DNA from: Terriglobia bacterium
Lineage (GTDB): Bacteria > Acidobacteriota > Terriglobia > Versatilivoradales > Versatilivoraceae
Direction: 5' to 3'
DNA: 64,000 nt
Assembly (NCBI GenBank): GCA_963665655.1
Contig: OY762429.1
Location: 2,224,503 to 2,288,502 of the forward strand
The notes under the pieces were generated by a model, which had not been told where the DNA came from, did not search any database, and saw nothing but the letters and a program-made list of their open reading frames with translations. Below, in pieces: positions 5,593 to 25,600 of this stretch; positions within the stretch are counted from its first letter, which is position 1; every line of letters begins with the position of its first letter. Made by a program: the position numbers and the translations under genes.

Positions 5593-6026
5593 CCGGCGAA
5601 TTTCAACGTTCAAGGGCCTTGCCCAATAACGGCGCCAGGAGACTTGCAAGCAGGGAGTTAATCCCCCGTGCCAAAAACTCAATCCGACAGAACAGCAGGC
5701 GGATCGCTTCCCGTTGTCCGTCCGGAATCGGCGGGCCAGGAAGCCTATACTATCGAGGCATAAACGCCCAACGATGCCAATGGATGCAGACAGATGGCCG
5801 ACTGATTAACCATTCCTCGCAAAACCGTTCCTCGCAGCTGGACAAAGTTTGCTTCGTGCTGCTTTCGACGGCAGTTTAGGAATCGATTTTCCACTTGATC
5901 ATCTAACCACCCTCGCAAGAGCAAATACCTCGGTGGCCACTTCAGCGTCAGAAGATTTCGGTGGTCGTGGGAGGTAAAGTGAAATCTTCTTGTCTTTTGA
6001 AACATAGTCAAAGCCACTCTCATCAT

Positions 6027-7199
6027 TCAGACTGGCGAAGACAACTTTGCTAAGGTTTCTTCAATAAAACCGACGGCCTCTTCAACGTCCTCGTCGCTTG
6101 TGCCAAAGCCGAGACTGAAACGGATAGATGCCTCGGCATCGTCACTGTCCAAGCCAATGGCTCTGAGGACATGCGACGGTTCCGGGATTCCTGTAGTGCA
6201 CGCGGAACCTGTCGAGGCCGCGAGACGCGGCTGAAGCGCACCGAGAATATCGTGCGCAGAAAAGCCCGCAAATCGGACATTGGCGTTGCCGGGGTGACGG
6301 TGCTCGCCACGCGGGCCATTCACAGCAACGGGCCAAGCCAGATTGTTCAGCTTAGCGAGGAATGCATCGCGCCGACGACGCAATTGCGAGCGCTTTTCGT
6401 CGGCATCGCACTGAGTAAATAGATCCGCTGCGGCAGCCATTCCAACACAAAGCGGTACAGGAACAGTACCGGAACGCAATCCGTTCTGTTGGCCCCCACC
6501 GTATAACAGCGGCTCGATCTGATCTTCCAAGGCGCGCGATATGCAAATAATTCCGATTCCTTTCGGTCCGTACATTTTGTGAGACGATAGGCTCAAGATA
6601 TCCACGTATTGCAATATGGTGTCAAGGCGCATTGCAAGGGGCGCTTGCGCAGCATCGCAGTGATAAATCGTCCCCTGACGTCTTACTACGTCTGATACCA
6701 CTTTAATGTCCTGAACTGTCCCGATTTCGTTATTCACCACCATCACAGAAACCGCGAGGACATCTTCGTCCAGCATTTCTTCCAGGGTCGATAGTTCGAC
6801 GAATCCTTCGCCATCGACCGGTATTGTTTCAACTGTGAAACCGTATTGCTTTTCTAGGACTCTGCCAGCTTCCAGCACGCTTTTGTGTTCTACTGCACTC
6901 AACAAAATGCGGCGGCGCTTGCCACCAGCCGCGCGGCGTCCTAGGCCAAGTAACGCCAAGTTGTTCGACTCGGTTGCCCCTGAAGTAAAGATAACCTCAT
7001 CGGCATCGGCACCGATCAGCCGAGCGACGCGACCAGTGGCGTCCTCGACCGCACGCGAAGATTCCCATCCGAAGCAATGCTCCGACGAGTGCGAATTCCC
7101 GAACAAATTACTAAAATAAGGGATCATTTCGTCCAAAACATGTAGATTGACCGGTGTTGTAGCCTGATGGTCAAAATAAACGCTGTTTCTATTTTTCAT
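6027..7199 (-). CDS. sspA: Cysteine desulfurase (class V aminotransferase, IscS/NifS/DndA/SspA-like)
   Basis: 390 aa with the PLP-lysine motif SLSSHKMYGPKG, a C-terminal active-site Cys region (STGSACT) and an N-terminal YFDHQATTP. It is divergent from sspBCD inside the low-GC island. Confidence 0.8.
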   Translation of the reverse strand: MKNRNSVYFDHQATTPVNLHVLDEMIPYFSNLFGNSHSSEHCFGWESSRAVEDATGRVARLIGADADEVIFTSGATESNNLALLGLGRRAAGGKRRRILLSAVEHKSVLEAGRVLEKQYGFTVETIPVDGEGFVELSTLEEMLDEDVLAVSVMVVNNEIGTVQDIKVVSDVVRRQGTIYHCDAAQAPLAMRLDTILQYVDILSLSSHKMYGPKGIGIICISRALEDQIEPLLYGGGQQNGLRSGTVPVPLCVGMAAAADLFTQCDADEKRSQLRRRRDAFLAKLNNLAWPVAVNGPRGEHRHPGNANVRFAGFSAHDILGALQPRLAASTGSACTTGIPEPSHVLRAIGLDSDDAEASIRFSLGFGTSDEDVEEAVGFIEETLAKLSSPV

Positions 7200-7352
7200 T
7201 TCCTCTTTATGAAACTGAGTCTAAAATTCTTAAGGCTAGCGGGTTCGAAAGCTAAGTAGGATTAGTGGGGAGCAACTCCGGTCACTGTCGAACATAGCAC
7301 AGTTTGTCAGCTACAGTCGACCTGGAGGTATCATCCAGTAGCCGGAGTACGC

Positions 7353-8312
7353 ATGGCGCGCGGACCACTTTTTCAAGCAGGCTACAACCCTCAGTTTTCG
7401 GGCCATGAAACCTTTCCACTCCGCTACGGATGGCTGAAAAAGGCATTGGACCGCGTCGTAGAAACCGAACATCAAGCTGACAACCGAGTCACATGCTGGG
7501 GCGGAGACGCTATCGCACGTTTTGGCGTCGGTAAAAATATGGTGGCGTCTATGCGCCATTGGGCCAAGGCAGCCCGAGTAATCATTGAACCCGCAAAAAA
7601 TACGGTTCGGACCACAGCACTCGGCCGCCTACTGTTTGGACGGACGGGAGTCGACCCGTATATGGAGCACCCCGCAACGTTGTGGCTAATCCATTGGCAG
7701 TTGGCGGCCTACGAAGAGAAGACTACATGGTATTGGGCGTTCAACCACTATTCTGCTGTGACCTTCGACCGTGAAGCGGTGATCATAATGCTCAAACGTC
7801 TTGCTAAGGACCGAAATTGGCTGAGAGTTGCCGATACGACAATCAAGAACGATGTTGCGTGTTTCGTTCGCACATACGTCGCGTGGCAACCGTCCAGCAA
7901 GACTGGCCATGATGACGTGCTTGAGTCACCGCTCACAGAATTGGGGCTAATCAAGGCCATCGGCAAAAAGGACGGTTTTCGCTTTGTAAGAGGCCCCAAG
8001 ACGACATTGGGCGATGGTGTATTTACTTATGCCTTGGTCGACTTCTGGTCACGGTATGCACCAAACTCAGCCACATTGTCCTTCGAGGCCATCGCTCATG
8101 CGCCCGGCGGTCCGGGCCGCGTATTCCTTTTAGACGAAAACGATGTCGTCGACCGTCTTGCTGCACTTGATGAGGTTACAGGCGGTACGCTGAGATGGTC
8201 CGAGACTGCCGGTCTGAAGCAGGTTATTCGCACTACCGAAATGGAAGGGGGTTCTGCCCTGTCCTGGGTCTACTGCGATTTCAACACGCCTACCGACATG
8301 GAGCCAATGTGA
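7353..8312 (+). CDS. sspB: SspB-like DUF4007 protein (phosphorothioation nickase component)
   Basis: N-terminal FSGHETFPLRYGWLKK motif typical of DUF4007. It is immediately followed and overlapped by the large ATPase and the PAPS-reductase-like gene in the sspBCD order. Confidence 0.7.
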   Translation: MARGPLFQAGYNPQFSGHETFPLRYGWLKKALDRVVETEHQADNRVTCWGGDAIARFGVGKNMVASMRHWAKAARVIIEPAKNTVRTTALGRLLFGRTGVDPYMEHPATLWLIHWQLAAYEEKTTWYWAFNHYSAVTFDREAVIIMLKRLAKDRNWLRVADTTIKNDVACFVRTYVAWQPSSKTGHDDVLESPLTELGLIKAIGKKDGFRFVRGPKTTLGDGVFTYALVDFWSRYAPNSATLSFEAIAHAPGGPGRVFLLDENDVVDRLAALDEVTGGTLRWSETAGLKQVIRTTEMEGGSALSWVYCDFNTPTDMEPM

Positions 8313-11300
8313 TGTCATTGAACGACCGTGTTCGGATAGCCCGGCGCTTCCTTAGATCGATCCGCATCGATTCTGATCTTGGCCATGTGGCGGCCCTTGA
8401 AGGATTCGTATGTCCGCAGTCGTCCTCCAACATTCTTTTGACAATGGCACGCCACGTCTCCCAAACGGGACAGGGCGCATTCACTTGGACTGGCCCCTAC
8501 GGCAGTGGTAAATCAAGCCTTGTCGTCGCCCTAAGTGCTTTATTAAACGGCGATACAGGACTGCAGGACGAAGCAGCAAAGATCTTCGGCCAGGAGTTGA
8601 CGAGGACGATCAGGGACACTTTGCCGATTGGAACAAAGGGGTGGCGTATTCTTCCCGTCGTCGCACGACGCGACGATCCCGTCACTGTCATCGGAGAATC
8701 CGTAAGGCGGACAGCGCTCGTATCCCGTCGGCCGCGTGGCGGCTGGACCGAAAGCAACCTGATCGCCACACTGACCAAAATCGCTAGCGAAAATCCCGAG
8801 ACACACGGCGGGCTCGTTCTTTTCATCGATGAGCTAGGCAAATTCCTAGAGGCAGCCGCCCGCGACGGCTCCGATATCTACATTCTCCAGCAGCTCGCCG
8901 AAGCGTCGTCACGGAGTCAGGGGCGGTTTCTTGTCGTGGGTGTGTTACACCAAGCGTTCGAGGAATACGCCCATCGCCTTTCATACGAGATGCGAGACGA
9001 GTGGGCGAAGATCCAGGGCCGTTTCATCGACCTTATTGTCAATACAGTAGGCGAAGAACAGATCGACCTGATCTCACGCGCGATCGAAAGCGATCATCAC
9101 CCAAAGAAGCCTAGCACCCTAGCAGCCACCGTCGCGAGCTTCGCATGTCGGGATCGTGCATCTGATGCGGGGCGCATAGCCTCCATTCTGGAAACATGCT
9201 GGCCGCTGCACCCTGTCGTAGCATGCCTTCTTGGACCGATTTCGCGTCGGCGTTTCGGGCAGAACCAACGAAGTATATTCGCCTTCTTGAACTCATCTGA
9301 GCCTCACGGGTTTCGAGACTTTCTGTGTCACGCTAGGGAAGGTGAACTATACGGCCCGGACCGGCTTTGGGACTACCTTCGCGCCAACTTAGAGCCATCC
9401 ATTTTAGCTTCACCCGATGGTCACCGGTGGGCGTTGGCAGCGGAAGCGCTTGAACGCTGCGAGGCAATCGGCGCCGACGCCGTTCACATCCGGTTGCTCA
9501 AAACAATTTCCGTCATTGACCTGTTCAAGGAGCGTTCGGGACTCGTCGCGAATTCGGCCTTGCTAGGCAGCTGTTTCCCTGAAACCTCAGCCAATGGGCT
9601 TGAAAGGGCGCTTTCGCAACTAGGTACATGGTCGTTCACGATCTTCAAGAAATTCCTCAACGCCCACACCATCTTTGCAGGGAGCGACTTCAACATAGAC
9701 GAGGCGGTCCGCACCGCACTCGACGAGATCGACGAGTTTGATTTAAAGGCGCTCAAGTCGCTCGCCGGGCTGCACCCGATCCTCGCCAAACGCCACTACC
9801 ACGACACAGGTGCGCTCAGATGGTTTGACGTGAACATCGTCTCAGTCAGCAGCCTTGTCGATTTCGTCGCCAAACATGAACCGGAGAACGGCGTGATCGG
9901 CCAGTTCCTTTTGGCGATTCCAACGGAGGGAGAAAGCCGCGACTACGCCGAGGACGTATGCCGTAAGGCCACGCGCCATAGTGACGCATGGGACATCATT
10001 GTAGGGATATCGAAAAGTTTCTGGGCTATAGTTCCACTAGCGCGAGAATTGTTTGCACTGGACAGCGTCAGCAACAATCACCCAGGGCTTGCGGGAGATT
10101 CCGTCGCGCGACGGGAAGTCTCCGCACGTCTCGTTACTCTACAAACATTGCTGGAAGCGGAACTGCGCAAGGCATTTGACAATGCGCTATGGTTCCAAAA
10201 AGAACACAGGCCCAAGCGGTTACGGCAGGCCGATCTGAACGGTATAGCTTCCGAGCTAGCGGATCGTCGTTTCGGTCAATCGCCGCGCCTACATAGCGAA
10301 TTGCTAAACCGCCAGAAACCATCAAGCAACGCAATCGCAGCTCAGAACGCCCTGTTACGGTGCATGGTAATGAATGAGGGTGCGCCGCGGCTTGGGATCG
10401 TGGGGTTTCCAGCCGAGGGTGGTCTGTTTGCTTCCATTCTGGAAGCCACAGGCCTGTACGTTACGGAGGAAGCAATTGGGCGTTACGTTTCACCGATAAC
10501 AAGCACTGATCCTTGCAACTTAGCCGCGATCTGGAAGAAGGCGATTAACCACGTCAAGGAATGTGCCAACCGCACGGTAACCTTCTCTGAGTTGTTCGAG
10601 CAGTGGTCTAAGCCGCCCTTCGGCGTGAAACAGGGCATGATGCCAGTCCTTGCGGTCGCCTTCGTGTTATCGCATCGCGACAAAATTGCGGTGTATCGTG
10701 ACGGTATTTTCAGGGCGAAATTCGACGACGTGGATGTCGACTATCTGGCCAAAGACCCGACGTTTGTCCAAGTGCGCTGGATGGACCTTAGCTATGTTGC
10801 GCGTCGACTATTGTCGGGACTGGCTCAAGTTGTCCGCGATCTTGACACGGCGAACCAGCTTATTCACCTTGAGCCCATCGATGTCGGACGTGGCCTTGTC
10901 GCAGTGTACGAGCGGCTTCCGAAATGGACCAAGAGGACGATGCGGCTATCTTCGAATGCCTTAAGAATACGCGAACTGTTCAAGCGCGCCCACGATCCAA
11001 ACCAGTTCCTGTTTAACGATCTTCCGGAAACACTCGGCGAGGACGTTTCGTTTGGAGACGAAAACGATCTGCGCCTTGTTATCGAAAGCGTTCGTGAGGG
11101 GCTGCATGAGCTAGTTGGAGCGTACACGTCAATGCTGCACCGCTTGCGGGAAATCATGTTGGCAGAGTTGCAGGTTCCTAACATTTCGCCCCGGTCTTTA
11201 CAGGAGTTGCGCGTCCGCGCTGAGAATATAAAACAGCTCTCCGGTGATTTTCGACTCGAGGCTTTCGTGGGCAGACTATCGCAGTTCGATGGTTCCGACG

Positions 11301-11698
11301 AGAGTGTGGAGGGTATAGCCAGTCTTGCCGCAAATAAGCCGGCCGGAGAATGGTTCGATCCCGACCTTGATCGGTGCGCCATAGAGCTCGCCGAAATGGC
11401 CCAAAAATTCCTACGTGCCGAGACGTATGCTCGCGTTAAAGGCCGTCCTGACAAACGGCAGGCGATAGCCGTTGTGATCGCCATGGACGGCCGACCTCAA
11501 CCGCTGTTGGAGGAATTCAACATCGCGGATACGGATCGCACTGCCGTCAAAGATCTAGTTGAGCGTGTCGCTAACACCATCGGACAGACCGCCACCAGCC
11601 AACGCGGAATAATTCTGGCAGCGCTAGCGGAACTCACGACGCGCTATATTCAGACAGCGTCGACTGGGCACAATAAGAAAGAAAGAGCAGCCTCATGA
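8312..11698 (+). CDS. sspC: SspC-like large P-loop ATPase
   Basis: Walker [17 protein letters not shown] and a Walker B-like LVLFIDELGKF. Start chosen at the ATG overlapping the sspB stop (TGATG); the ORF is open from 8195, so the start is uncertain. The 3-prime end overlaps sspD by 4 nt. Confidence 0.7.
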   Translation: MSLNDRVRIARRFLRSIRIDSDLGHVAALEGFVCPQSSSNILLTMARHVSQTGQGAFTWTGPYGSGKSSLVVALSALLNGDTGLQDEAAKIFGQELTRTIRDTLPIGTKGWRILPVVARRDDPVTVIGESVRRTALVSRRPRGGWTESNLIATLTKIASENPETHGGLVLFIDELGKFLEAAARDGSDIYILQQLAEASSRSQGRFLVVGVLHQAFEEYAHRLSYEMRDEWAKIQGRFIDLIVNTVGEEQIDLISRAIESDHHPKKPSTLAATVASFACRDRASDAGRIASILETCWPLHPVVACLLGPISRRRFGQNQRSIFAFLNSSEPHGFRDFLCHAREGELYGPDRLWDYLRANLEPSILASPDGHRWALAAEALERCEAIGADAVHIRLLKTISVIDLFKERSGLVANSALLGSCFPETSANGLERALSQLGTWSFTIFKKFLNAHTIFAGSDFNIDEAVRTALDEIDEFDLKALKSLAGLHPILAKRHYHDTGALRWFDVNIVSVSSLVDFVAKHEPENGVIGQFLLAIPTEGESRDYAEDVCRKATRHSDAWDIIVGISKSFWAIVPLARELFALDSVSNNHPGLAGDSVARREVSARLVTLQTLLEAELRKAFDNALWFQKEHRPKRLRQADLNGIASELADRRFGQSPRLHSELLNRQKPSSNAIAAQNALLRCMVMNEGAPRLGIVGFPAEGGLFASILEATGLYVTEEAIGRYVSPITSTDPCNLAAIWKKAINHVKECANRTVTFSELFEQWSKPPFGVKQGMMPVLAVAFVLSHRDKIAVYRDGIFRAKFDDVDVDYLAKDPTFVQVRWMDLSYVARRLLSGLAQVVRDLDTANQLIHLEPIDVGRGLVAVYERLPKWTKRTMRLSSNALRIRELFKRAHDPNQFLFNDLPETLGEDVSFGDENDLRLVIESVREGLHELVGAYTSMLHRLREIMLAELQVPNISPRSLQELRVRAENIKQLSGDFRLEAFVGRLSQFDGSDESVEGIASLAANKPAGEWFDPDLDRCAIELAEMAQKFLRAETYARVKGRPDKRQAIAVVIAMDGRPQPLLEEFNIADTDRTAVKDLVERVANTIGQTATSQRGIILAALAELTTRYIQTASTGHNKKERAAS

Positions 11699-12534
11699 CC
11701 AAACCTGCTGTGAAGCATGTGCTCGGGCTGTCCGGTGGGCGAGATAGCGCGGCGCTAGCCGTCTACATGCGGCAAAACCATCCCGCAATCGATATCCAGT
11801 TTTTTTTTACGGACACAGGCAAGGAACTGCCCGAAGTGTATGAATTTCTAGGGCGACTTGAAGGTTTTCTTGGTAAACCGATCTTGCGGCTGAATCCTGA
11901 CCGTGACTTCGATTTCTGGCTTAAGCAATACAACCACTTTCTGCCATCGCCGCAAACGCGCTGGTGCACACGGCAGCTTAAACTGCGCCCGTTTGAGCAC
12001 TGGCTTCGCCCATTGCTTGCCAATGGAACGATGATCTACAGTTATGTTGCTATTCGCAGTGACGAGCAGTTCCGTGAAGGGTACTCCTCTAAACATAGCA
12101 ATTTGGTTGTCAAACTGCCGTTCAAGCAGGCCGGGATCGATAAAGCTGGTGTGCTTGAAATCCTAGATGGAGCCGGGCTTGGCCTACCGAATTATTATTC
12201 TTGGAGAACGCGTAGCGGCTGCACTTTTTGTTTTTTCCAGCAGAAGATCGAATGGGTTCGGCTCAAACAGCAGCACCCGGAGGCGTTCGAGGAAGCCAAG
12301 GCGTACGAAAAAAACGCCGTTGAAAACGGTTCACCTTTTACATGGAGCCAAGGTGAATCTCTCCAGCAGCTTGAAAAGCCGGAGAGGATCGTGCAGATTA
12401 GGGCGGATCATGAACGACGTTTGGCCCGCATGCGCTCCAAAGCCAAGCCAAACCCGCTTAGGCCGGATAGCGAGCCTCTAGATATTGACGACTTGTACGG
12501 AAAAGCCAAAGTCTGCCTCGCATGCCACAAGTAG
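11695..12534 (+). CDS. sspD: SspD/DndC-family PAPS-reductase-like ATP pyrophosphatase (PP-loop)
   Basis: PP-loop motif LGLSGGRDSAALAV at the N-terminus, the PAPS reductase fold pattern, cysteine-containing C-terminal motifs (CTFC; CLACHK) and ATGA overlap with sspC. Confidence 0.8.
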   Translation: MTKPAVKHVLGLSGGRDSAALAVYMRQNHPAIDIQFFFTDTGKELPEVYEFLGRLEGFLGKPILRLNPDRDFDFWLKQYNHFLPSPQTRWCTRQLKLRPFEHWLRPLLANGTMIYSYVAIRSDEQFREGYSSKHSNLVVKLPFKQAGIDKAGVLEILDGAGLGLPNYYSWRTRSGCTFCFFQQKIEWVRLKQQHPEAFEEAKAYEKNAVENGSPFTWSQGESLQQLEKPERIVQIRADHERRLARMRSKAKPNPLRPDSEPLDIDDLYGKAKVCLACHK

Positions 12535-12552
12535 CTAAAATATTGACTGAAA

Positions 12553-18356: not shown

Positions 18357-18412
18357 AGAAACGCGCCCGACTCCGATTTCCCCCAGCTACCAATCTGATC
18401 ATCCGTGCCGTC

Positions 18413-18877: not shown

Positions 18878-21030
18878 CTGTCTCCTATGATTGACGCTAT
18901 GTCTCTGTCGACCTGCGCATCGTCATGGCGTTGACAAAGTTGGCATTCCTTGCGGTGATTGCATTCACAGCGCAGAACCTTACGTTCAGCGACGCCCGGA
19001 TCGTTGACGAGCATTTTCGGGTAATGCGTCGTATTGGTCAGCGTGAAAACTACACCCGCCGTCTCATCGATGATGTCCTCGCACCCGGCGATTTCATCGT
19101 GAGTGAGAAAGAGCACGAGCTGTGTACTTTCGCGTACTGCCTTTCGCAGTATCGAGCGCTTGACGTACCCGCTTGTCATCCCGAGCGGCGTGTCGATGAC
19201 ATTGGGCGCTTCGACCTCGCTGACCCTCGTTAGCGCAAGGATGAAAGCCAGTGTCAGTGCGCGTCGCGATGCCCCGTTGAGGTCACGGTCCGGGTTGAGC
19301 ATCCTGTTGTTCGGCCCGTAGACGATTATGTCGAATTCCCGGCTGATTTCGGCGTGCCGGATAATCGCGCCCTGTTGCGGGTCCGCGCCGATCATTTCGA
19401 GAAAGATGTAATTCATCCGTTCGCTGACCTTGGCGAGTTCCTCATTCGCCATCCGCCTATACGCGCTCATCAATACCTTCATCACATCCTGAGTGACTTC
19501 AAGTTCGGCCAGTATGCGTGCGCCTTTCTTCTGCTCGCGCAGCAGTCGGTCGCGTGTGTTCTCAAGGATTTCGCGTTCACGGTGGAGCCCTGTGAGCTGT
19601 GTTTCGATTGCAGCACGCTTTGCCAGACACCGGTCGCGCTGGTCCTTGTATTGCCGCAGGGTTACCCGCAGGCCTTGGATGTCTGTGTTCGGCAATGCGT
19701 CGAGTTGTAGTTCCAGCCCTCGGTATTTGCGTCCCGCTTCATCGCGAACGATCTGGATGCCATCCCGACGTTCGACGACCTTCTTGTACTCTTCTAGCCA
19801 TTCGCTAGTCGCCGCATTGCCAGCACCTTGCAACGGCTTAGCACTGTAAAACAGGTCAGTAATAATCTCTTGAATTTCGTCGGCGCGCTGGCTGTCATCG
19901 ATCAGCTTCTGAATATAGGCGCGACGCTTGTCACCTTGCAGGTCTCCCGGTTCAAGCGTTTCACCACAAATGCAGAGTTCGGCTGAGAGGCGCTCTTGCA
20001 AGACCGGGATCGTCGTGTTAGGGATCTTGCCCTGATCGTGTAGTTCTTCGAGTTTCTCGTAGGCCTTGCCGAGCAGGGGCGCAAGCAGATCGGTCGCGAT
20101 TGAGCGGCTACGGAAAAGGGCCGAATGTTCCTTGTTGGCTGTAGCGAGCTGGTAATCGAGTTGCCCTATATCTTGCCTGGTGGTTTCAAGCTCCTTCCGT
20201 AGCTTCACCTTGTCACCTTTTTGAAGGGCGGCTGCGATTTTGCGGTCGGTTTCGTTCACCTTCTCTTCGAATGCTGCGAATTGCTGTTTCACATCCTCGA
20301 GATCGTCTTCCAGTTTGTTCCAGTCCTCATTAATTTCTTCGAGGCGTGAAGCGGTGCTGTTCAGCTCGCTGTCACTTCCGACCTGTTTCGCGTTCCTGTT
20401 CACTTCTGCTGCAGATTTGCGGACATGCTTAATCGCATCGCCGATCACACCGACGCCGAGAAGGGAACGGATAGCGCGCTGAACGCGCTCGCGCTTGGTC
20501 GAAAGTGCTGCATCGGCTTCGATGAAGCTGAGCGCGCGGTCGCCATCCGTAAAGAAGACCTCACGCAGTTCCGGCGGTAGTTCGTCGTTGATAAGGGATT
20601 CGGGTGCAACGATGGGAGCTGCGCCGCTGTCGTTCAGCGCAAACAGCTTCACCGTTGATGCTGAACGGTAAGATCTGCTTTCCACGTCTTCGAAAGCGGA
20701 ACGAACGAGGCGATAGTGCCGCCGCGTTTTGCGTAGTTTACCGGCCAATCTCCGGTAAGTCTTTAACTCGAACTCCAACGTCGCAGTGATTGGAACCCGT
20801 TTGCGCTCATTCGCATCCCAGTCGATAGGATGCAAGCGAAAACCATCGCCCTTGCCCGGCAAGGCAACGTCGCCGTAGAGCGCCCATTGCAGCGCATGAA
20901 GGATCGTCGTCTTACCTGATTCGTTCGCCGCACGTATGATCGTGAGGTTCCTCTCGGCATCGCTGGCGAATTCAAGCTCCAGATTCCGGAGCAGCCGGAA
21001 ATTTTCAAATGAGGCGCGAAGTAGCTTCAT
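18874..21030 (-). CDS. SMC/RecF/SbcC-like AAA ATPase with a long coiled-coil (DndD-like architecture)
   Basis: N-terminal Walker A NESGKTTILHALQWALYGD, a long heptad-rich middle region, a C-terminal signature/Walker B region (LVLFLTHDE) and terminal Cys cluster CECNHRKECQLC. Confidence 0.6.
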   Translation of the reverse strand: MKLLRASFENFRLLRNLELEFASDAERNLTIIRAANESGKTTILHALQWALYGDVALPGKGDGFRLHPIDWDANERKRVPITATLEFELKTYRRLAGKLRKTRRHYRLVRSAFEDVESRSYRSASTVKLFALNDSGAAPIVAPESLINDELPPELREVFFTDGDRALSFIEADAALSTKRERVQRAIRSLLGVGVIGDAIKHVRKSAAEVNRNAKQVGSDSELNSTASRLEEINEDWNKLEDDLEDVKQQFAAFEEKVNETDRKIAAALQKGDKVKLRKELETTRQDIGQLDYQLATANKEHSALFRSRSIATDLLAPLLGKAYEKLEELHDQGKIPNTTIPVLQERLSAELCICGETLEPGDLQGDKRRAYIQKLIDDSQRADEIQEIITDLFYSAKPLQGAGNAATSEWLEEYKKVVERRDGIQIVRDEAGRKYRGLELQLDALPNTDIQGLRVTLRQYKDQRDRCLAKRAAIETQLTGLHREREILENTRDRLLREQKKGARILAELEVTQDVMKVLMSAYRRMANEELAKVSERMNYIFLEMIGADPQQGAIIRHAEISREFDIIVYGPNNRMLNPDRDLNGASRRALTLAFILALTRVSEVEAPNVIDTPLGMTSGYVKRSILRKAVRESTQLVLFLTHDEIAGCEDIIDETAGVVFTLTNTTHYPKMLVNDPGVAERKVLRCECNHRKECQLCQRHDDAQVDRDIASIIGDR

Positions 21031-21041
21031 GTGTCCAATTC

Positions 21042-21272
21042 CTACTTACCCGCATTTTGGGCTCGCTGGTCCGCCAGGAAGTGCGCAGCGGCGTTGCATT
21101 TGTCATTGATTTTCTTCTGGATAGTCGTCGCAGAAACGCGATGACCTCGTTCGTATTCAAAAATGTCTGAAATCACGTCGATAATCTCTTCCCTGTAGCC
21201 ATTGCAGCGTTCTTCGATCTCTGCGCATTCCTCAAGGATGATCGAGATTATCTTCTTGTCATTCAGTGGCAT
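21042..21272 (-). CDS. Small hypothetical protein (76 aa)
   Basis: Fits exactly between the helicase and the ATPase genes, with gaps of 18 and 12 nt. No recognisable domain. Confidence 0.4.
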   Translation of the reverse strand: MPLNDKKIISIILEECAEIEERCNGYREEIIDVISDIFEYERGHRVSATTIQKKINDKCNAAAHFLADQRAQNAGK

Positions 21273-21289
21273 CTTGCAATCCTCCAGCC

Positions 21290-23542
21290 CTACAAGTAGG
21301 CAGCATCCACCATCTTGTCAATTGTTGCCAACGGCCCGTCCGGACGTCCAGCATTGCCAGCAAGCCGCGCGAATTCCTGTGCGCGGCGCAACTCGGAGCG
21401 CACGAGGCTACGTGCATCGGGGTCGAGCCCGTCTTCCATCTTGGGTGGTAACGCCAGTAAGTCATGAATGACACTAAACGTCTTTCCGATCGCACTGCAG
21501 GTTCGCAGTAATCGTCCGCGCCGCTGCACCCATTGCCGCTCCACAGTAGTGCTCGCGAGAATGAACGCCTTGCATATTTGCGGAATGTTCACGCCTTCAT
21601 CGAGTACGCGCTTGGCCGTCAGAACCTGAATCTCGCCGTCTTGGAAAGAGCCAATAATTCGTTTTGTCTGGTCTCTGCTCGCGGTTTCTTTCGCTGTTAG
21701 CTGATGGAACAAAATGTTCTTGTCCCGTAGCAGTCGGTTCACATTGTCGAGCTGTTCTGGTCCTTTATCCGAAGCATACACAAGAGTATGCCGCAACCCG
21801 CTGGCATCCTTTTCTTCAAGCAGGGACTTCAGCATTGCCACTTTGCCTGAGGCAGTTTCCAGTAGCGCCCGCCGATCGCGTAGCAGCTTGGCGAGGTACT
21901 CGTCTGGCTTGCCGTCCTTTTCGCGCCAAGCGTTCTGCTTGATCTTACCTGTCATAAAGAACCACTGGTCCATTTCACTTTCAGTCAGATAGACCGGGTG
22001 CAAGTAGTAGTCGTATTCGACAAGGCAGCGCCCGATTGCTTCTTCAAGCGTAAAGCGAAAAACTACCGGACCAAAAAATCCTAACAGCGCTTCCGTTCCC
22101 TTTTCGTCATATTGGCGGCTCGGTGTTGCTGACAGACCGATCCTATGCTCGAAAAACTCCGGCGGTCCTCCGGTGAATGAAACGCGCCCGAGATTGTGAG
22201 CTTCATCTGCGATTAGCAGCCTCGTGCACTCGAATCCATCTACAACATCGAGAAATTCTGGTGTGCACAGAGTATCGTGGCTGACGACGACTGCCTCGAC
22301 CTGCGACAGACCAGTGCGCAAGCGCCGTTTGATTTTGTGAAGCTCTCTCGCACGGTTGTTAGCGCCACCTGCCGTCGTAAGATTGATTGGTTTCAGTCCG
22401 AAGGGAACGATTTCATCGCACCACTGTTCGATCAAGGGTACATAGGGCGCAGCAATGACAATCAGAAGGGTATTGCACCTTTGATAAAGGCGGTGTGCAG
22501 CGATCATCGAGGTGATGGTTTTCCCAGAGCCAGTCGCCATCTCCAGGATGCCGCGAAATCCTGCCTTGCACCAAGCATTGACCGCCTTGCCCTGGTGTTC
22601 AAACGGACCGTCTTCGTATCGCAGAAATCTCGGTATCGCAAAGTCTTTCTTCAGTGCGGGAACGGACCCGTAAGATTCGGGGGGTTCCGCAACCCTCGTG
22701 GCGCGACAGTAGAGCGTGCGAAGTTCGTCTTCGGTCGGTGGGGTCTCCGCGCTGTAGGTACGCAGCAGGCGCAGCTTCACGGCCTCCGGCATCGCGATTA
22801 CTATGCAATTATCATCCCTGTTCTCCCACAAGCCTCCGAATTTATAGCTCAGCTTGTCGGTAATGTAGCGCTGGTTCGGGTCCTGCCAAGAACGCGAGAT
22901 TGCTATTTGTTCTATGTTTTTGCGAATACCAGCATAGGTTACATTGCTCGATCCGTGAGCCGCGACGATATCGGTACCATTTTCGAACAACCAAACCTTC
23001 GGATGAAAGAGCGCTTCTTTCATCAGGGCAACCTTGATTTCGATACGATGCTCACGTACTAGCCAGGTCAAACATTTCAACGTGTGGCGCTGCAGCAGAT
23101 CTTCCGTGACTGTCAGCTCTTTCAAAATCCTATCGGCGACTGTTTCCGGGGAGTGTAAACCGTCCCTGATGGCGGCCTGGTCTTCGGTCCGTAGCACTGG
23201 ACTGATGATCAGCCTGAAGCTACTCTCCGAACAGGCAATATAGGTTGCAAGGCCAGGAGCAAGCGAGGCTAGCACTTCACTTGAGAAAAAACCAACCATA
23301 CACGCAACCCTTTCCGCTGCCTGGAAGCTGGGAATCAACACTTCTTCGGCGAGCGGATCGCCCGGGAGTATGTAAAGTGGTCTGGCTTCGTCCAGCGACT
23401 GCAAACTCCTCACTTGTGTCAATGTGTTCGGGTCTCGCCGCACTGGCGGTTCATTTGTCATATGAATTCCCTTCATTCGTCGTTGTCGAATTGACCGACT
23501 CGATCGCGCGTAATGAAGTGCCGGTTGCAATGCCGGCACCAT
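21290..23542 (-). CDS. PLD-like (HKD-variant) nuclease domain fused to an SF2 DEAH-box helicase
   Basis: N-terminal HPKVWLFE...AAHGSSN resembles an HxK...GSxN PLD motif. Helicase motif I EMATGSGKT, motif II LLIADEAHNLG and a C-terminal QRRGRLLR (motif VI). The start is uncertain: alternative Mets at 23476 and 23461. Confidence 0.65.
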   Translation of the reverse strand: MVPALQPALHYARSSRSIRQRRMKGIHMTNEPPVRRDPNTLTQVRSLQSLDEARPLYILPGDPLAEEVLIPSFQAAERVACMVGFFSSEVLASLAPGLATYIACSESSFRLIISPVLRTEDQAAIRDGLHSPETVADRILKELTVTEDLLQRHTLKCLTWLVREHRIEIKVALMKEALFHPKVWLFENGTDIVAAHGSSNVTYAGIRKNIEQIAISRSWQDPNQRYITDKLSYKFGGLWENRDDNCIVIAMPEAVKLRLLRTYSAETPPTEDELRTLYCRATRVAEPPESYGSVPALKKDFAIPRFLRYEDGPFEHQGKAVNAWCKAGFRGILEMATGSGKTITSMIAAHRLYQRCNTLLIVIAAPYVPLIEQWCDEIVPFGLKPINLTTAGGANNRARELHKIKRRLRTGLSQVEAVVVSHDTLCTPEFLDVVDGFECTRLLIADEAHNLGRVSFTGGPPEFFEHRIGLSATPSRQYDEKGTEALLGFFGPVVFRFTLEEAIGRCLVEYDYYLHPVYLTESEMDQWFFMTGKIKQNAWREKDGKPDEYLAKLLRDRRALLETASGKVAMLKSLLEEKDASGLRHTLVYASDKGPEQLDNVNRLLRDKNILFHQLTAKETASRDQTKRIIGSFQDGEIQVLTAKRVLDEGVNIPQICKAFILASTTVERQWVQRRGRLLRTCSAIGKTFSVIHDLLALPPKMEDGLDPDARSLVRSELRRAQEFARLAGNAGRPDGPLATIDKMVDAAYL

Positions 23543-23799
23543 ACCAGGTAATGAATTCCCATAAAGCTCGCCAGATCAATCAACCCACAAATTGGTTAAG
23601 CGCTTCCATGTTCAAACCGCTTGGGGACGTGCTTAACTGTCTCGCTAGTTTCAAAAAAAGAGTGTTGACTCCTATGAAAGTCATCGCCTACGGCGATTGC
23701 TACGCACAACCCAAGTTGGGGCGGATGCTCCGCAAAAGGGGGGTTAACGTTTTGTTTGAGGGCATGGACGGGGGGCACCACCGCTGTGGTTCCACTAAA

Positions 23800-24513
23800 T
23801 CAGCGCCCTAATAGTGTTCTAAGTTTCTCTATTACGTGCCATTGTCTGGATCGCCTTAGATAACCCGGATGGTACGTTCGGAAGGATTTCCTATGCTCTT
23901 TGTCGTGGTTCAAACGGTTCAAGCAAGCTAAGCAACGCAAATTGAATCCCTTGACCTGTTCGAACTCCACACAGGGGAAGGTTGCTTTGATTCGGTTATC
24001 ATACCAATGCCCAGTGAAGAGAATGACAACATCTGGTTTTGTTACGCACAGTTCGTACTGGCGAAGACAGGTCGAGCAGATTAGCTCCTCAAGCTCATGG
24101 TGAGGCTTCTGCCCATTGTCATCAACTTTGATCAGGTTTGACCAAAGGAATCCCCGCGGTGGTCCGTCGGGATTCAGAAAATTGTAGACCTCATAAGCCG
24201 CTTGCCAGAAAGGCGATTTCATTTTCCTTTTCCCCATCTCGAAACGACGATACTGGTCGAGGAGAGCCTCAATACCATCTTCTGGGTGGCCCCACCCGTT
24301 CGTTTGCTGGCCGACCACCATCAACTTCACGCTTGCTTCGTGGTACGCGTGGGGAACATGGATAAGCAATGGTCCTCCAAGATTCCGTTCCTTAGAAAGC
24401 TGGGACCAAACATCATTATCAAGAACCGTCGAATACATCTCGAAGAGCTTACGATTCATGTCGAACATTCGGTCCCCTTTATTGGCGTCCCAGGTGCTCA
24501 GCGTGCGGACCAC
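23800..24513 (-). CDS. Hypothetical protein (237 aa), first gene of the minus-strand island operon
   Basis: Coding-like ORF in the low-GC island, preceded by a ~330-bp AT-rich non-coding region. No recognisable domain. Confidence 0.4.
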   Translation of the reverse strand: MVRTLSTWDANKGDRMFDMNRKLFEMYSTVLDNDVWSQLSKERNLGGPLLIHVPHAYHEASVKLMVVGQQTNGWGHPEDGIEALLDQYRRFEMGKRKMKSPFWQAAYEVYNFLNPDGPPRGFLWSNLIKVDDNGQKPHHELEELICSTCLRQYELCVTKPDVVILFTGHWYDNRIKATFPCVEFEQVKGFNLRCLACLNRLNHDKEHRKSFRTYHPGYLRRSRQWHVIEKLRTLLGR

Positions 24514-24847
24514 AATGGGATCAGGAGGCTACGAACAACCTTGAGTCCCATCTCAGCAATGAACTTTGCAGATGTTGCTGCCTTCCAACCGACTGTCATG
24601 GAGTTGCTAAGTTCAATGGTCAAGCTGGAATAGCCCATAATATGGGTCCGCGTTTCTACAGAAACACCACTCGCATGAAAGTGAAACGATTCAGAAGCAA
24701 TTTATAACCCCTGACACACACTATTTCGCACACTTCCAAGAAAACATCCTGGCTGAGATCCCATAGGTCGTGAGTTTTCTCGTTCAGGATAAGTGATAAA
24801 TCTGGCACCCATGGTTTGTTCGCCCCACTTCAGGTACAGACTTCACC

Positions 24848-25600
24848 TCACGGCCACTTCCAATTGACTTTCGCTTCGGACCGCCGCACGGTGAGGGCGC
24901 GTAGGTCCGGGGCCGCGGTCTAATACCCGCGGCCGGCCTTTGGCCCAAAGAGCCTTGATTTCCTGGACGAGTGCCCCTGACGGATCGTTGCACAGGTCAC
25001 CCGTCGGGATCCCACGGTCGCAGCCTGGGGATCCAGCGCGGCACGTTGGCCTTGTAGCACCGATAGCTGTCTCCGAATCGCCTTTCCAGGCCCGGCTCCT
25101 CAAACCTCAGGAAATAGAGCATCTTGAGCAGGAAAAAGACCGCCATCCACCCGGCCAGGTGCCACGAGCCCAAGAGCAGCGATTCGGCGCCGAGGAGGAG
25201 AAGCACGCTCGTAATAATAGGATTTCTGACGTGGCGGTAGGGGCCGTAAACAACCAGTCTGGTTGGTGGAGCCCAGGGCGCGGGAGTCCCCCTGCCGACC
25301 TTCACAAACAGCTTGGCGCACCAGGTAGACAAAACCAGGCCGGTGGTCGCCAAGGCAATGCCGCTCCAGAATCGGACCTGTTCCGGCCCTGCCGGAGCAA
25401 TGGCGCCCGGCCTATCGGCCACCAACCACAGGATCGCGCCGGGAATGTACACGAGGATGGTGCCCGGAAGGATGAGGATGTGCTTGACCCACTGCAGAAT
25501 CATTCCCGTCCCAACGGCCAGACTGCTCTCAGGGCCCTTTCCAATTGACCTCCGCGTCGGGCCGCCGCAGGTAGAAGGCGCGCAGGTCCGGGGGCGCGGT
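24848..25600. repeat. Imperfect direct repeat (~63 bp, ~84% identity): one copy at 24848-24910, the other at 25535-25600 (the 3-prime end of tsaB)
   Basis: TTCCAATTGAC followed by about 52 further alignable bases with ~10 mismatches in both copies. The second copy encodes the TsaB C-terminus; the first lies at the right edge of the low-GC island. Confidence 0.7.
24997..25503 (-). CDS. Isoprenylcysteine carboxyl methyltransferase / phospholipid methyltransferase family membrane protein (paralog of the gene at 543..1076)
   Basis: YRHVRNPIITS motif and a C-terminal EEPGLERRFGDSYRCYKANVPRWIP, with hydrophobic helices. High GC. Confidence 0.6.
   Translation of the reverse strand: MILQWVKHILILPGTILVYIPGAILWLVADRPGAIAPAGPEQVRFWSGIALATTGLVLSTWCAKLFVKVGRGTPAPWAPPTRLVVYGPYRHVRNPIITSVLLLLGAESLLLGSWHLAGWMAVFFLLKMLYFLRFEEPGLERRFGDSYRCYKANVPRWIPRLRPWDPDG

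What the first reader, a model, noticed from the sequence alone, without database searches (positions are those of the whole stretch)
5600..25600. About 19.8-kb low-GC island splitting the tsaB-rimI gene pair, with no integrase
tsaB (25529..26212, minus) and a rimI-like acetyltransferase (5059..5592, minus) are normally adjacent and co-transcribed in many bacteria. Here they are separated by a segment whose base composition is visibly AT-richer than the flanks, from about 5.75 kb to 24.85 kb. That segment carries only Ssp and defence-type genes plus hypotheticals, with no integrase, transposase or tRNA. This points to an old or non-canonical insertion such as a recombination-mediated island swap at a conserved hotspot.
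Basis: partly seen in the sequence, partly recalled or inferred. Interest (0 to 1): 0.6.

Follow-up and report, generated by a model that had tools for sequence, protein, structure and literature searches.

The report
Integrase-less phosphorothioate defence island at tsaB–rimI
A 19-kb stretch of foreign, AT-richer DNA carrying phosphorothioate-based anti-phage genes sits exactly between two housekeeping genes that are normally fused end to end; this is an ordinary kind of defence-island hotspot, though its cargo includes a kinase/receiver gene pair always found beside Ssp genes and apparently not yet described.

Summary
tsaB (TIGR03725, 144 bits) and a rimI-type GNAT are 19.9 kb apart. Window 5715-24846 has GC 0.528, against 0.626 and 0.633 in the flanks; GC3 is 0.48-0.65 against 0.78-0.88.

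The host is a Candidatus Versatilivorator-like acidobacterium. In 17 relatives the tsaB stop abuts or overlaps the rimI start, or the gap holds other small cargo:
- a PEMT-like gene
- a vapBC cassette
- an LRR protein
- in one genome, IS elements and a tyrosine integrase

None of them carries this island. It therefore occupies a genuine variable hotspot and is not ancestral.

The cargo is all defence-type:
- SspABCD
- a complete PbeABCD-like (CxC ABC ATPase) module
- a histidine kinase / receiver-domain protein / Mrr-like nuclease trio that is not SspE or SspFGH
- two orphan genes at the edges

I found no integrase, transposase, relaxase, tRNA, Rfam RNA or bracketing repeat. The scars are a 94-nt degenerate copy of the tsaB 3' end and the last ~17 codons of vapC.

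The 17-kb core recurs in the same gene order in four other genomes at other sites, and only one of those has mobility genes nearby. The route of entry is unresolved: recombination through the conserved flanks, or a decayed site-specific element.

As an island this is a new member of a known kind. The Ssp-linked kinase/receiver pair (9 of 9 contexts) is the novel lead.

The parts
5059..5613 (-). rimI-type GNAT acetyltransferase; conserved left flank of the hotspot
   Evidence: TIGR01575 86.4 bits, at the cut-off. 72-86% aa identity to the gene that follows tsaB in relatives.
5690..5734 (-). Remnant of the 3' end of a vapC (PIN toxin) gene, its last ~15-17 codons (…PIPDGQREAIRLLF)
   Evidence: DNA homology with L001, L004 and L006 starts at 5714. 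Those loci carry intact vapB (74 aa) and vapC (135 aa, ending …PIPAVDPREAIRLLF) at this spot.
5715..24846 (.). Foreign low-GC cargo (19.1 kb): the island proper
   Evidence: GC 0.528 against 0.63 in the flanks, GC3 0.48-0.65. No synteny with any of 11 relatives between these coordinates.
5745..6026 (-). 93-aa orphan ORF at the island edge
   Evidence: No hit in Pfam, NCBIfam or PADLOC. Not part of the composite shared with L032 and L036.
6027..7199 (-). SspA/DndA-type cysteine desulfurase
   Evidence: PADLOC SspA 405.6 bits; Pfam Aminotran_5 265 bits.
7353..8312 (+). SspB (DUF4007, DNA-binding subunit)
   Evidence: PADLOC SspB 356.8 bits; PF13182 290 bits.
8309..11698 (+). SspC (BrxC-like AAA+ ATPase). 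Likely start is GTG 8309, overlapping the sspB stop.
   Evidence: PADLOC SspC 1321 bits, aligned from residue 42 of the longer ORF that starts at 8195. The GTGA overlap was read (repeat D13). The orthologue in L032 is 1129 aa.
11695..12534 (+). SspD (PAPS-reductase family)
   Evidence: PADLOC SspD 447.3 bits.
12553..14028 (-). 491-aa protein with a C-terminal Mrr-type restriction-endonuclease domain; accessory third gene of the kinase/receiver module
   Evidence: PF04471 Mrr_cat E=2.8e-5, residues 329-437. An orthologue (55% id) occupies the same position in Methylocaldum L033/L034. It is truncated in L032 and L035 and absent in L036-L038, L067 and L068.
14029..15930 (-). 633-aa protein: N-terminal receiver-like (REC) domain plus an uncharacterised C-terminal region
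   Evidence: No Pfam domain. More than 731 homologues, all unnamed. D20, D21, D141, S178 and K206 are invariant in 25 homologues. The AF2 model (pLDDT 74) has receiver-domain regulators as its best PDB matches, and these are weak (E 3e-3 to 0.3).
15927..18356 (-). Histidine kinase with an N-terminal MORC/Hsp90-like GHKL module. The real start is probably near 18296, giving 790 aa.
   Evidence: Pfam HATPase_c_3 (residues 131-218), HEF_HK and HATPase_c (693-804). PDB LvrB E=1.6e-14. H591, N699, D737, G741, G765 and G767 are invariant in 9 orthologues. Its stop overlaps the start of the 633-aa gene by 4 nt.
18413..18877 (-). 154-aa protein in the PbeD (DndE-cognate) position
   Evidence: The assignment is by position only. 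It lies immediately downstream of PbeC, overlapping it by 4 nt. Orthologues of 153 aa occur in L032, L036, L067 and L068. It has no HMM hit, and BLASTP gives only E=0.08 to a PF27807 protein.
18874..21030 (-). PbeC-like CxC-type ABC ATPase (DndD relative)
   Evidence: PADLOC PbeC 171.6 bits; AAA_23; C353-I-C355 motif. Definition taken from PMC10853773.
21042..21272 (-). 76-aa small protein in the PbeB position
   Evidence: ORF. 79% identical to the 81-aa gene between the PbeA and PbeC orthologues in L032.
21290..23542 (-). PbeA-like HKD (PLD) nuclease fused to an SF2 helicase
   Evidence: PADLOC PbeA 635.2 bits; Pfam PLDc_2, ResIII and Helicase_C; TIGR04095 359.9 bits, below its 600-bit cut-off.
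23800..24513 (-). 237-aa orphan ORF at the island edge
   Evidence: No hit in Pfam, NCBIfam, PADLOC or PDB. Outside the shared composite.
24847..24940 (-). Degenerate duplicate of the last 93 nt of tsaB plus its stop codon (pseudo-fragment with an in-frame TAG); marks the right edge of the cargo
   Evidence: 80% identical to 25528-25621 (D1). The 21-nt tsaB end occurs only at these two places in the window, against 0.01 expected by chance. An orthologous copy sits at L007:11361-11453, at 82% identity with a shared spacer.
24997..25503 (-). PEMT/ICMT-like membrane methyltransferase; an older insertion with native GC
   Evidence: PF04191 E=4e-8. GC3 0.78. Present in L003, L006, L007, L009, L010, L039 and L040, as fragments in L001 and L004, and absent in L002, L008, L011, L012 and L041.
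25529..26212 (-). tsaB; conserved right flank of the hotspot
   Evidence: TIGR03725 144.3 bits. 85-92% aa identity in 10 Versatilivorator-like genomes.

Best explanation
Window 5715-24846 is a horizontally acquired defence island based on DNA phosphorothioate (PT) modification. It lies in a genus-specific variable spot at the junction between the tsaB stop and the rimI start of a Candidatus Versatilivorator-like acidobacterium.

Shown:
- The site is empty in outgroups and in one congener.
- It was filled in layers. First came a native-GC PEMT-like gene together with a duplicated tsaB 3' end. Then came a vapBC cassette. The 19.1-kb cargo now lies between that duplicate and the last codons of vapC.
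- The cargo core (sspA to pbeA, about 17.3 kb) is a recurrent unit with fixed gene order. It is found at unrelated chromosomal sites in at least four other genomes.

Inferred, how it got in:
- The cargo has no recombinase, and no repeat brackets it. The most likely route is recombination rather than self-integration.
- That could be a double crossover in the conserved flanks with DNA from a related donor delivered by transduction, conjugation or transformation. Alternatively, one homologous and one illegitimate crossover could have deleted vapB and most of vapC.

Inferred, how it works:
- SspABCD puts single-strand PT marks on host DNA.
- The PbeABCD-like module (HKD nuclease-helicase, CxC ABC ATPase, small proteins) and the kinase / receiver-protein / Mrr-like nuclease trio act as the effector arms against unmarked invading DNA.
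For: - Composition.
- Gene identities.
- Host lineage.
- Empty sites: L008, L011, L012 and L041.
- PEMT only: L003, L009, L039 and L040.
- PEMT with vapBC: L006, with decayed forms in L001, L004 and L002.
- PEMT with an LRR protein: L010.
- PEMT with the tsaB duplicate, IS elements and an integrase: L007.
- The flanks are collinear for more than 5 kb on both sides in 10 relatives at 85-94% nt identity.
- No mobility gene, tRNA or RNA family, and no repeat bracketing the cargo.
- Collinear composites at 70-77% nt identity occur in L032 and L036. L067 and L068 have the same gene order. Each lies between different housekeeping genes and is lower in GC than its flanks.
- All 11 genes of the three defence modules are intact ORFs here. 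In L032 PbeA is frameshifted and the Mrr-like gene is deleted.
- An analogous hotspot model, with transfer through conserved flanks that leaves no MGE scars, was proposed for P. aeruginosa cDHS1 (PMC10250203).
Against: - No donor or sister genome with the same island at this site was found, so no recombination tract could be shown.
- The closest copy of the cargo is only about 75% identical in DNA (L032).
- Flank recombination only moves an island that already sits at this site. The first insertion still needs another mechanism.
- The cargo in the window and the different cargo in L007 both start at the same nucleotide after the duplicated tsaB end, which looks site-specific.
- PT modification and any anti-phage activity are untested.
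- The source is a metagenome-assembled genome.
Confidence: 0.8

Rival explanations
1. This is a decayed site-specific integrative element. An element with a tyrosine recombinase targets the 3' end of tsaB and duplicates it as an att site. Its integrase end was later lost in a deletion that also removed vapB and most of vapC.
For: - A 94-nt direct repeat of the tsaB 3' end, including the stop codon, is present.
- An orthologous repeat exists in L007. Unrelated cargo begins there at the same nucleotide, and that cargo holds a tyrosine integrase (L007:18692-19798) and two IS elements.
- All cargos at this spot start within about 15 nt of a tsaB-type stop codon.
- A distant relative of the kinase/receiver-Ssp cluster on Agrobacterium plasmid pAtK224b lies next to vapBC and a site-specific integrase.
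Against: - The two repeats bracket only the 0.5-kb PEMT gene, not the 19-kb cargo. There is no third copy on the rimI side at up to 3 mismatches in 21 nt.
- No integrase remnant was found by Pfam or tblastn.
- The same composite sits without any recombinase between housekeeping genes in L036, L067 and L068.
- The common breakpoint could simply reflect selection. With overlapping essential genes, only insertions at the junction leave both genes intact.
Confidence: 0.25
2. This is an assembly artefact: a chimeric join in a metagenome-assembled genome placed foreign low-GC DNA between tsaB and rimI.
For: - The window comes from a MAG-type lineage, and every relative found is a MAG.
- The island protein's exact sequence was reported on a single 4.9-Mb contig.
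Against: - Two precise misjoins would be needed. Both junctions lie inside structures shared with other genomes: the tsaB duplicate with L007, and the vapC remnant with L001, L004 and L006.
- Both flanks are collinear with relatives.
- Equivalent composites occur as lower-GC inserts between housekeeping genes in four other long contigs.
Confidence: 0.03
3. This is an ancestral segment: the cluster is old and vertically inherited, and relatives lost it.
For: There are no mobility genes. The neighbouring scars (tsaB duplicate 80% identical to its source, vapC remnant) are old.
Against: - GC3 is 0.48-0.65 against 0.78-0.88 for host genes.
- Thirteen close relatives lack the island and instead hold six other states of the same spot.
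- Outgroups have tsaB overlapping rimI.
- The nearest homologues of the cargo are in unrelated hosts such as Methylocaldum and Pyrinomonadaceae.
Confidence: 0.03

Closest known systems
Core defence hotspots (cDHS1/cDHS2) of Pseudomonas aeruginosa (PMC10250203)
   Same: - A variable region is pinned between conserved core genes.
- Cargo differs between close genomes and is rich in defence systems.
- GC is lower than in the core genome.
[quoted passage not shown]
- Transfer by recombination through the conserved flanks has been proposed.
   Different: - The phylum is different and the flanking pair (tsaB | rimI) is new.
- Only 17 related loci were seen here, most holding small non-defence cargo, so enrichment for defence at this spot is not established.
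- This site also carries a duplicated flank end.
Integration hotspots of the E. coli pan-genome (PMC10121019)
   Same: Dedicated chromosomal positions between core genes are mostly empty and occasionally hold defence-carrying islands.
   Different: In E. coli the occupants are nearly always recognisable MGEs (prophages, satellites, ICEs, transposons), often at tRNA genes. Here there is no integrase, transposase or tRNA.
SspABCD-SspE and SspABCD-SspFGH phosphorothioate defence systems (PMC8092258)
   Same: - The modification module SspA, B, C and D is complete, with strong model matches.
- Candidate effector genes lie next to it.
   Different: - No island protein matches SspE.
- The adjacent trio is not SspFGH, because no FtsK/SpoIIIE-like SspH is present.
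- In Methylocaldum (L033) and Agrobacterium pAtK224b (L069), FtsK-domain (SspH-like) genes lie beside the kinase/receiver pair, so the pair is a separate module.
PbeABCD / CxC ABC ATPase-DndE systems (PMC6459918; re-annotated in PMC10853773)
   Same: The four genes appear in the expected order: HKD nuclease-SF2 helicase (PbeA), a small fast-evolving protein, a CxC-motif ABC ATPase (PbeC), and a small protein in the PbeD position.
   Different: - The module is coupled here to SspABCD rather than to DndCDEA.
- The PbeD-position protein shows no detectable similarity to DndE-type models.
- The host is bacterial, not a haloarchaeon.

Membership tests
Horizontally acquired genomic island in a core-gene-flanked hotspot | Base composition and codon usage deviate from the host | tested here: met
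   GC 0.528 against 0.63; GC3 0.48-0.65 against 0.78-0.88.
Horizontally acquired genomic island in a core-gene-flanked hotspot | Flanking genes are adjacent (empty site) in related genomes | tested here: met
   The tsaB stop overlaps the rimI start in L008, L011, L012 and L041.
Horizontally acquired genomic island in a core-gene-flanked hotspot | Different cargo at the same site in other genomes | tested here: met
   PEMT only; PEMT with vapBC; vapB with a vapC remnant; PEMT with an LRR protein; PEMT with IS elements and an integrase.
Defence island | Clustering of several defence systems | tested here: met
   SspABCD, a PbeA/PbeC module and an Mrr-type nuclease gene by PADLOC and Pfam.
Integrative element (prophage / ICE / IME / transposon) | Encodes an integrase, transposase or relaxase | tested here: not met
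   Pfam on every ORF of 76 aa or more in the island, plus tblastn with 12 mobility proteins from related loci, gave nothing at E<0.01.
Integrative element (prophage / ICE / IME / transposon) | Direct (att or TSD) or inverted repeats bracket the element | tested here: not met
   The only significant repeat (94 nt) brackets the PEMT gene, not the cargo. No third copy of the tsaB end is present.
Integrative element (prophage / ICE / IME / transposon) | Insertion at a tRNA or tmRNA gene | tested here: not met
   ARAGORN found 0 genes in 64 kb. Rfam found 0 matches in 4500-26500.
SspABCD modification module | All four proteins present: cysteine desulfurase, DUF4007, BrxC-like ATPase and PAPS reductase | tested here: met
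   PADLOC SspA 406, SspB 357, SspC 1321 and SspD 447 bits.
SspABCD modification module | Produces single-strand PT (5'-CpsCA-3') in host DNA | not testable with these tools
   Requires LC-MS or sequencing-based PT mapping.
SspE partner | An SspE homologue adjacent to sspBCD | tested here: not met
   No island protein matched any SspE-named PADLOC model at E<=1e-3. I did not verify independently that the library contains an SspE model.
SspFGH partner | A three-gene module with a Walker-A SspF and an SspH whose C-terminus is FtsK/SpoIIIE-like (PMC8092258) | tested here: not met
   The trio is a histidine kinase, a REC-like protein and an Mrr-like nuclease, with no FtsK domain. FtsK-domain genes are separate neighbours of the pair in L033 and L069.
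PbeABCD / CxC-ABC system | PbeA: HKD nuclease fused to an SF2 helicase | tested here: met
   PADLOC PbeA 635 bits; PLDc_2, ResIII and Helicase_C.
PbeABCD / CxC-ABC system | PbeC: ABC ATPase with a CxC motif in the coiled coil | tested here: met
   PADLOC PbeC 172 bits; C353-I-C355.
PbeABCD / CxC-ABC system | PbeD is a DndE cognate | tested here: inconclusive
   The position and size are right and 153-aa orthologues are conserved. There is no HMM hit, and BLASTP gives only E=0.08 to a PF27807 protein.
Two-component system (histidine kinase + receiver protein) | Kinase with H, N, G1 and G2 boxes | tested here: met
   HATPase_c 66.5 bits and HEF_HK. H591 (AHELARS), N699, D737xG, and G765xG are invariant in 9 orthologues.
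Two-component system (histidine kinase + receiver protein) | Partner with a receiver domain: acidic pair, phospho-acceptor Asp, Ser/Thr and Lys | tested here: inconclusive
   D20, D21, D141, S178 and K206 are invariant with REC-like spacing apart from an ~80-aa helical insert. Foldseek's best hits are receiver proteins but weak (E 3e-3). There is no Pfam Response_reg hit.

The most novel reading that the evidence does not exclude
The histidine kinase (with an N-terminal MORC/Hsp90-like GHKL module) and the 633-aa receiver-domain protein may form a phosphorelay hard-wired to SspBCD. That would make them an undescribed third type of Ssp partner, besides SspE and SspFGH.

Here and in at least four other genomes the pair is part of a fixed ~10-gene unit in the order PbeA-B-C-D / kinase / receiver protein / SspD-C-B / SspA. 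This unit moves between chromosomes without its own recombinase.

If so, it would link DNA-backbone modification to a two-component signalling step in phage defence. It might also explain part of the ~84% of sspBCD clusters reported to lack a known restriction partner (PMC8092258).
Probability: 0.4. Interest if true: 0.7.

Novelty: new member of a known kind. Interest (0 to 1): 0.42.

Why it matters
As a genomic feature this is a clean, well-bounded example of an integrase-less defence island in a hotspot between core genes. It lies in an uncultivated acidobacterial genus, and the layered scars let the order of events at the site be read.

That is useful, but it is not surprising given the P. 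aeruginosa and E. coli hotspot studies.

The cargo has more potential. A strongly conserved kinase/receiver gene pair was found next to SspBCD in all nine contexts examined, across hosts with GC from 0.40 to 0.63 (kinase 69-81% aa identity across the eight closer contexts). It is annotated only as 'sensor histidine kinase' plus 'hypothetical protein'. It gives a concrete, testable candidate for the missing effector or regulator of the many 'orphan' Ssp systems.

Tried and rejected
- SspFGH identity for the trio at 12553-18356 is rejected. The published features (Walker-A SspF, FtsK-like SspH) are absent, and FtsK-domain genes occur as separate neighbours in L033 and L069.
- Repeats bracketing the cargo: the repeat finder gave only chance-level short pairs between the two ends. 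The 21-nt tsaB end has no third copy.
- tRNA and RNA families: none.
- Integrase, transposase or relaxase remnants: none.
- Promoter and terminator scan at the rimI side: counts were within about one to three sd of shuffled sequence (promoter-like 2 vs 1.7; terminator-like 7 vs 3.1, sd 1.5) and gave no usable signal.
- The metagenome scan with TsaB added only two close relatives, both in the PEMT-only state.
- The viral-contig scan with the 633-aa protein found nothing.
- The exact-sequence look-up of the window's own 633-aa protein was not on record, so the source record and sample could not be named.
- Sequence searches of PDB with the 633-aa, Mrr-like, 154-aa and 237-aa proteins found nothing useful.
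- Literature searches linking Ssp with GHKL, HATPase, histidine kinase, receiver or two-component terms found nothing relevant. Subscription-only papers were not searched.
- A test for discordant flank divergence as a recombination signature was inconclusive. Identities to relatives are 90-94% on the tsaB side and 84-92% on the rimI side, with the same nearest relatives on both sides.

Full report
**1. Observation**

The 64-kb window has a sharp compositional trough.
- GC is 0.528 over 5715-24846, against 0.626 to the left and 0.633 to the right.
- All 17 two-kb windows inside the trough fall between 0.499 and 0.564. The 42 outside average 0.631 (sd 0.028).
- Third-position GC separates the gene sets cleanly: 0.48-0.65 for the 13 genes in the trough, 0.78-0.88 for tsaB, mutS, rimI, the PEMT-like gene and neighbours.

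- 25529..26212(-) is TsaB (TIGR03725, 144 bits against a 69-bit cut-off).
- 5059..5613(-) is a RimI-type GNAT (TIGR01575, 86.4 bits, at the cut-off).

There is no tRNA or tmRNA in the window. No Rfam family reaches threshold in 4500-26500.

**2. Host and site**

TsaB relatives in species-representative genomes place the window in Acidobacteriota, next to Candidatus Versatilivorator (family Versatilivoraceae). TsaB is 85-92% identical in ten genomes.

Protein and DNA comparison of 12 such loci plus 3 metagenome contigs shows both flanks collinear for more than 5 kb at 84-94% nt identity. Collinearity breaks exactly at the tsaB stop (25528) on one side and at 5610-5714 on the other.

The interval between the flanks takes seven different states.
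1. Empty, with the tsaB stop overlapping the rimI start: L008 (same genus), L011 (family), L012 and L041 (more distant).
2. A 168-aa PEMT/ICMT-like methyltransferase only: L003, L009, L039, L040.
3. PEMT plus a vapB (74 aa) / vapC (135 aa PIN) cassette: L006. L001 and L004 have the same with PEMT reduced to fragments.
4. vapB plus the last 21 codons of vapC plus 0.5 kb of other DNA: L002.
5. PEMT plus a 684-aa leucine-rich-repeat protein: L010.
6. PEMT, a duplicated tsaB end, then native-GC DNA: L007. That DNA holds a broken FGE-sulfatase gene, an IS6-family transposase, a DruA-domain DDE transposase and a tyrosine integrase. No rimI lies within 9 kb.
7. The window itself.

More distant phyla (L013-L016, L023) also keep rimI within 20-430 bp of tsaB. 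The empty site exists, the spot is variable, and the island is unique to this genome among those sampled.

**3. Anatomy of the junctions**

Reading the minus strand:
- tsaB ends at 25529.
- The PEMT-like gene runs from 25503 to 24997.
- After a 56-nt spacer comes a 94-nt copy of the tsaB 3' end with its stop codon (24940-24847).
- This copy is 80% identical to 25621-25528 and carries an in-frame TAG.
- The 21-nt tsaB terminus occurs only at these two places in the window, against 0.01 expected by chance.
- The low-GC DNA starts at the next base.

L007 has the orthologous spacer (76% identity) and duplicate (82% identity). Both copies share derived bases (AAGGCCGGCCGCGGG) that the functional tsaB ends lack. 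L007's unrelated cargo starts at the same nucleotide. The duplication is therefore older than the cargo and has a single origin.

At the other end, homology with L001, L004 and L006 starts at 5714. The translated sequence 5734-5690 (PPIPDGQREAIRLLF) matches the C-terminus of their VapC (SPIPAVDPREAIRLLF). The cargo therefore lies between the tsaB duplicate and the stump of a vapC gene; vapB and most of vapC are gone.

No repeat brackets the cargo itself.

**4. Cargo**

Every ORF of 76 aa or more was scanned.
- **SspABCD:** SspA (6027..7199-), SspB (7353..8312+), SspC (8309..11698+) and SspD (11695..12534+) match PADLOC models at 357-1321 bits.
- **PbeABCD-like module:**
  - PbeA (21290..23542-, HKD nuclease plus SF2 helicase, 635 bits).
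  - A 76-aa gene (21042..21272-).
  - PbeC (18874..21030-, 172 bits, with a C-I-C motif at 353-355).
  - A 154-aa gene (18413..18877-).
  - This matches the four-gene architecture as re-annotated in PMC10853773. The PbeD/DndE identity of the last gene rests on position only.
- **A translationally coupled trio between the two modules:**
  - An ~790-aa histidine kinase with an N-terminal MORC/Hsp90-like GHKL module (15927..18296/18356-).
  - A 633-aa protein with no Pfam domain (14029..15930-).
  - A 491-aa protein with a C-terminal Mrr-type nuclease domain (12553..14028-).
- **Orphans:** two ORFs at the edges (5745..6026 and 23800..24513).

Nothing resembles an integrase, transposase or relaxase. 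This includes tblastn with 12 mobility proteins from related loci.

**5. The trio is not SspFGH**

SspF has a Walker A motif and SspH a C-terminus like FtsK/SpoIIIE (PMC8092258). Neither feature is present here.

The 633-aa protein has more than 731 homologues of nearly constant length, all unnamed.
- An alignment of 25 shows invariant D20, D21, D141, S178 and K206. Their spacing matches a receiver domain apart from a helical insert.
- An AlphaFold model (pLDDT 74) has receiver-domain regulators (AmiR, PorX, EutV, CheY-like) as its best PDB matches. These matches are weak, E 3e-3 to 0.3.

The kinase has invariant H, N, G1 and G2 boxes in nine orthologues that are 69-81% identical.

In all eight genomic contexts looked up, the kinase/633-aa pair lies directly beside SspBCD. 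The same holds for a 37%-identical pair on Agrobacterium plasmid pAtK224b (L069). The eight are L032, L033/L034 (Methylocaldum), L035, L036, L037 (GC 0.40), L038 (Pyrinomonadaceae), L067 and L068.

The Mrr-like gene is accessory. It is intact only here and in Methylocaldum.

The pair has no PADLOC model. I found no paper linking Ssp to a kinase, GHKL or receiver protein. This is a lead, not a demonstrated system.

**6. The cargo core is a travelling unit**

Window 6049-23403 (sspA to pbeA) is collinear with L032 and L036 at 70-77% nt identity. L067 and L068 have the same ten genes in the same order.
- Each copy sits at a different chromosomal place between housekeeping genes and is lower in GC than its flanks.
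- Only L032 has mobility genes nearby, an IS3 and a TrwC relaxase.
- The absence of an integrase is therefore typical of this cluster, not peculiar to the window.

**7. How it got there**

Shown:
- It is foreign DNA at a recurrently used junction.
- Two older layers (PEMT with the tsaB duplicate, and vapBC) lie around it.
- It has no self-mobility functions and no bracketing repeats.

Inferred:
- I favour entry by recombination (about 0.5). This could be exchange through the conserved flanks with DNA from a related donor. Alternatively, one homologous and one illegitimate crossover could have removed vapB and most of vapC. The flank model is the one discussed for P. aeruginosa core defence hotspots (PMC10250203).
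- The main rival (about 0.25) is a decayed site-specific element that used the tsaB 3' end as its attachment site.
  - For it: the duplicated tsaB end, the identical cargo start point in L007, and L007's integrase.
  - Against it: the repeats bracket only PEMT, and the same composite lacks recombinases elsewhere.
- The shared breakpoint could also reflect selection alone. With tsaB and rimI overlapping, only insertions at the junction leave both genes intact.
- An assembly chimera or vertical inheritance is each very unlikely (about 0.03).

**8. How it probably works (inference from family knowledge)**

- SspA supplies sulfur. SspB, C and D install single-strand PT marks on host DNA.
- The HKD nuclease-helicase and CxC ATPase module, and the kinase / receiver protein / Mrr-type nuclease module, would attack or respond to unmarked invading DNA.
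- All 11 genes of the three defence modules are intact here. In L032 PbeA is frameshifted and the Mrr-like gene is deleted. This fits a recently acquired, still functional island.
- One side effect is that rimI is no longer co-transcribed with tsaB. It now lies downstream of sspA and the 93-aa ORF on the same strand.

**9. Verdict**

The hotspot, the empty site, the alternative cargo and the lack of an integrase all hold. 'Old' is unlikely for the cargo. The recombination mechanism is unproven.
- As a genomic feature it is a new member of a known kind, a defence island in a hotspot flanked by core genes.
- The most novel element is the Ssp-linked kinase/receiver pair and the fixed ten-gene composite.

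Noticed in passing
window 14029-18356 (-); L032, L033, L035-L038, L067, L068, each at about 7632-11900; L069 9587-13863: A histidine kinase (with an N-terminal GHKL module) and a 633-aa receiver-like protein form a translationally coupled pair. It lies directly beside SspBCD in 9 of 9 contexts across several phyla. It is annotated only as 'sensor histidine kinase' plus 'hypothetical protein', has no PADLOC model, and I found no paper on it.
   Followed up: partly
window 6049-23403; L032 2548-18716; L036 2533-18410; L067 and L068 at about 2480-18480: A fixed ten-gene order (PbeA-B-C-D / kinase / receiver protein / SspD-C-B / SspA) recurs in five genomes at five different chromosomal sites. Each copy is lower in GC than its flanks. 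Mobility genes (IS3, TrwC relaxase) lie nearby only in L032.
   Followed up: partly
window 24847-24940 and L007:11361-11453: A 94-nt degenerate duplicate of the tsaB 3' end (with stop codon) follows the PEMT-like gene in this window and in L007 only. The two copies share derived bases, so they have one origin. Different cargo begins at the same nucleotide in both.
   Followed up: yes
window 5690-5734; L001 10982-11610; L004 10950-11578; L006 5703-6331; L002 10699-10984: A vapB/vapC (PIN) toxin-antitoxin cassette occupies the same tsaB-rimI spot in several sister genomes. The window keeps only the last ~15-17 codons of vapC, and L002 keeps vapB plus 21 codons of vapC.
   Followed up: yes
L010:11322-13376: In one sister genome the same spot holds a 684-aa leucine-rich-repeat protein (LRR_8, E=4e-29).
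   Followed up: partly
L007:11353-19798: In L007 the spot holds native-GC DNA containing:
- an FGE-sulfatase gene interrupted by an IS6-family transposase
- a transposase with DruA and DDE_Tnp_1 domains
- a tyrosine integrase
rimI is not within 9 kb. The far end of this cargo could not be read.
   Followed up: partly
L069 (Agrobacterium tumefaciens plasmid pAtK224b, 66915-92765): A distant kinase/receiver pair (37% identity) is followed by three genes, the last an FtsK/SpoIIIE-domain protein (SspFGH-like), and then by SspD and SspC. A vapBC pair, a site-specific integrase, a recombinase and an IS110 lie a few kb upstream.
   Followed up: partly
window 12553-14028; L032 11903-12239; L035 11907-12038: The Mrr-like third gene is unstable. 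It is intact in the window and in Methylocaldum, reduced to short remnants in L032 and L035, and absent in L036-L038, L067 and L068.
   Followed up: partly
window 44000-47000 and 49000-50500: There are two smaller GC dips.
- 44-47 kb (GC 0.56-0.58), with a sulfatase-like 731-aa ORF (44750..46945-).
- About 49-50.5 kb (GC 0.52), with a DUF4268 protein (49563..50513-) next to a UvrA-like ABC ATPase (50797..53328-).
These may be further small insertions.
   Followed up: partly
L007 4163-5089 and L008 634-4282 (equivalent to window ~31333): L007 and L008 carry 0.9 kb and 3.6 kb of extra DNA between the homologues of window genes 31334..32194 and 30487..31332. This is a second variable spot in the neighbourhood.
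   Followed up: no
window 8195-8312 and 18296-18356: Mechanical ORF calls over-extend two genes.
- SspC most likely starts at GTG 8309, a GTGA overlap with the sspB stop.
- The kinase most likely starts near 18296, where the orthologue consensus begins MFKICART.
   Followed up: partly
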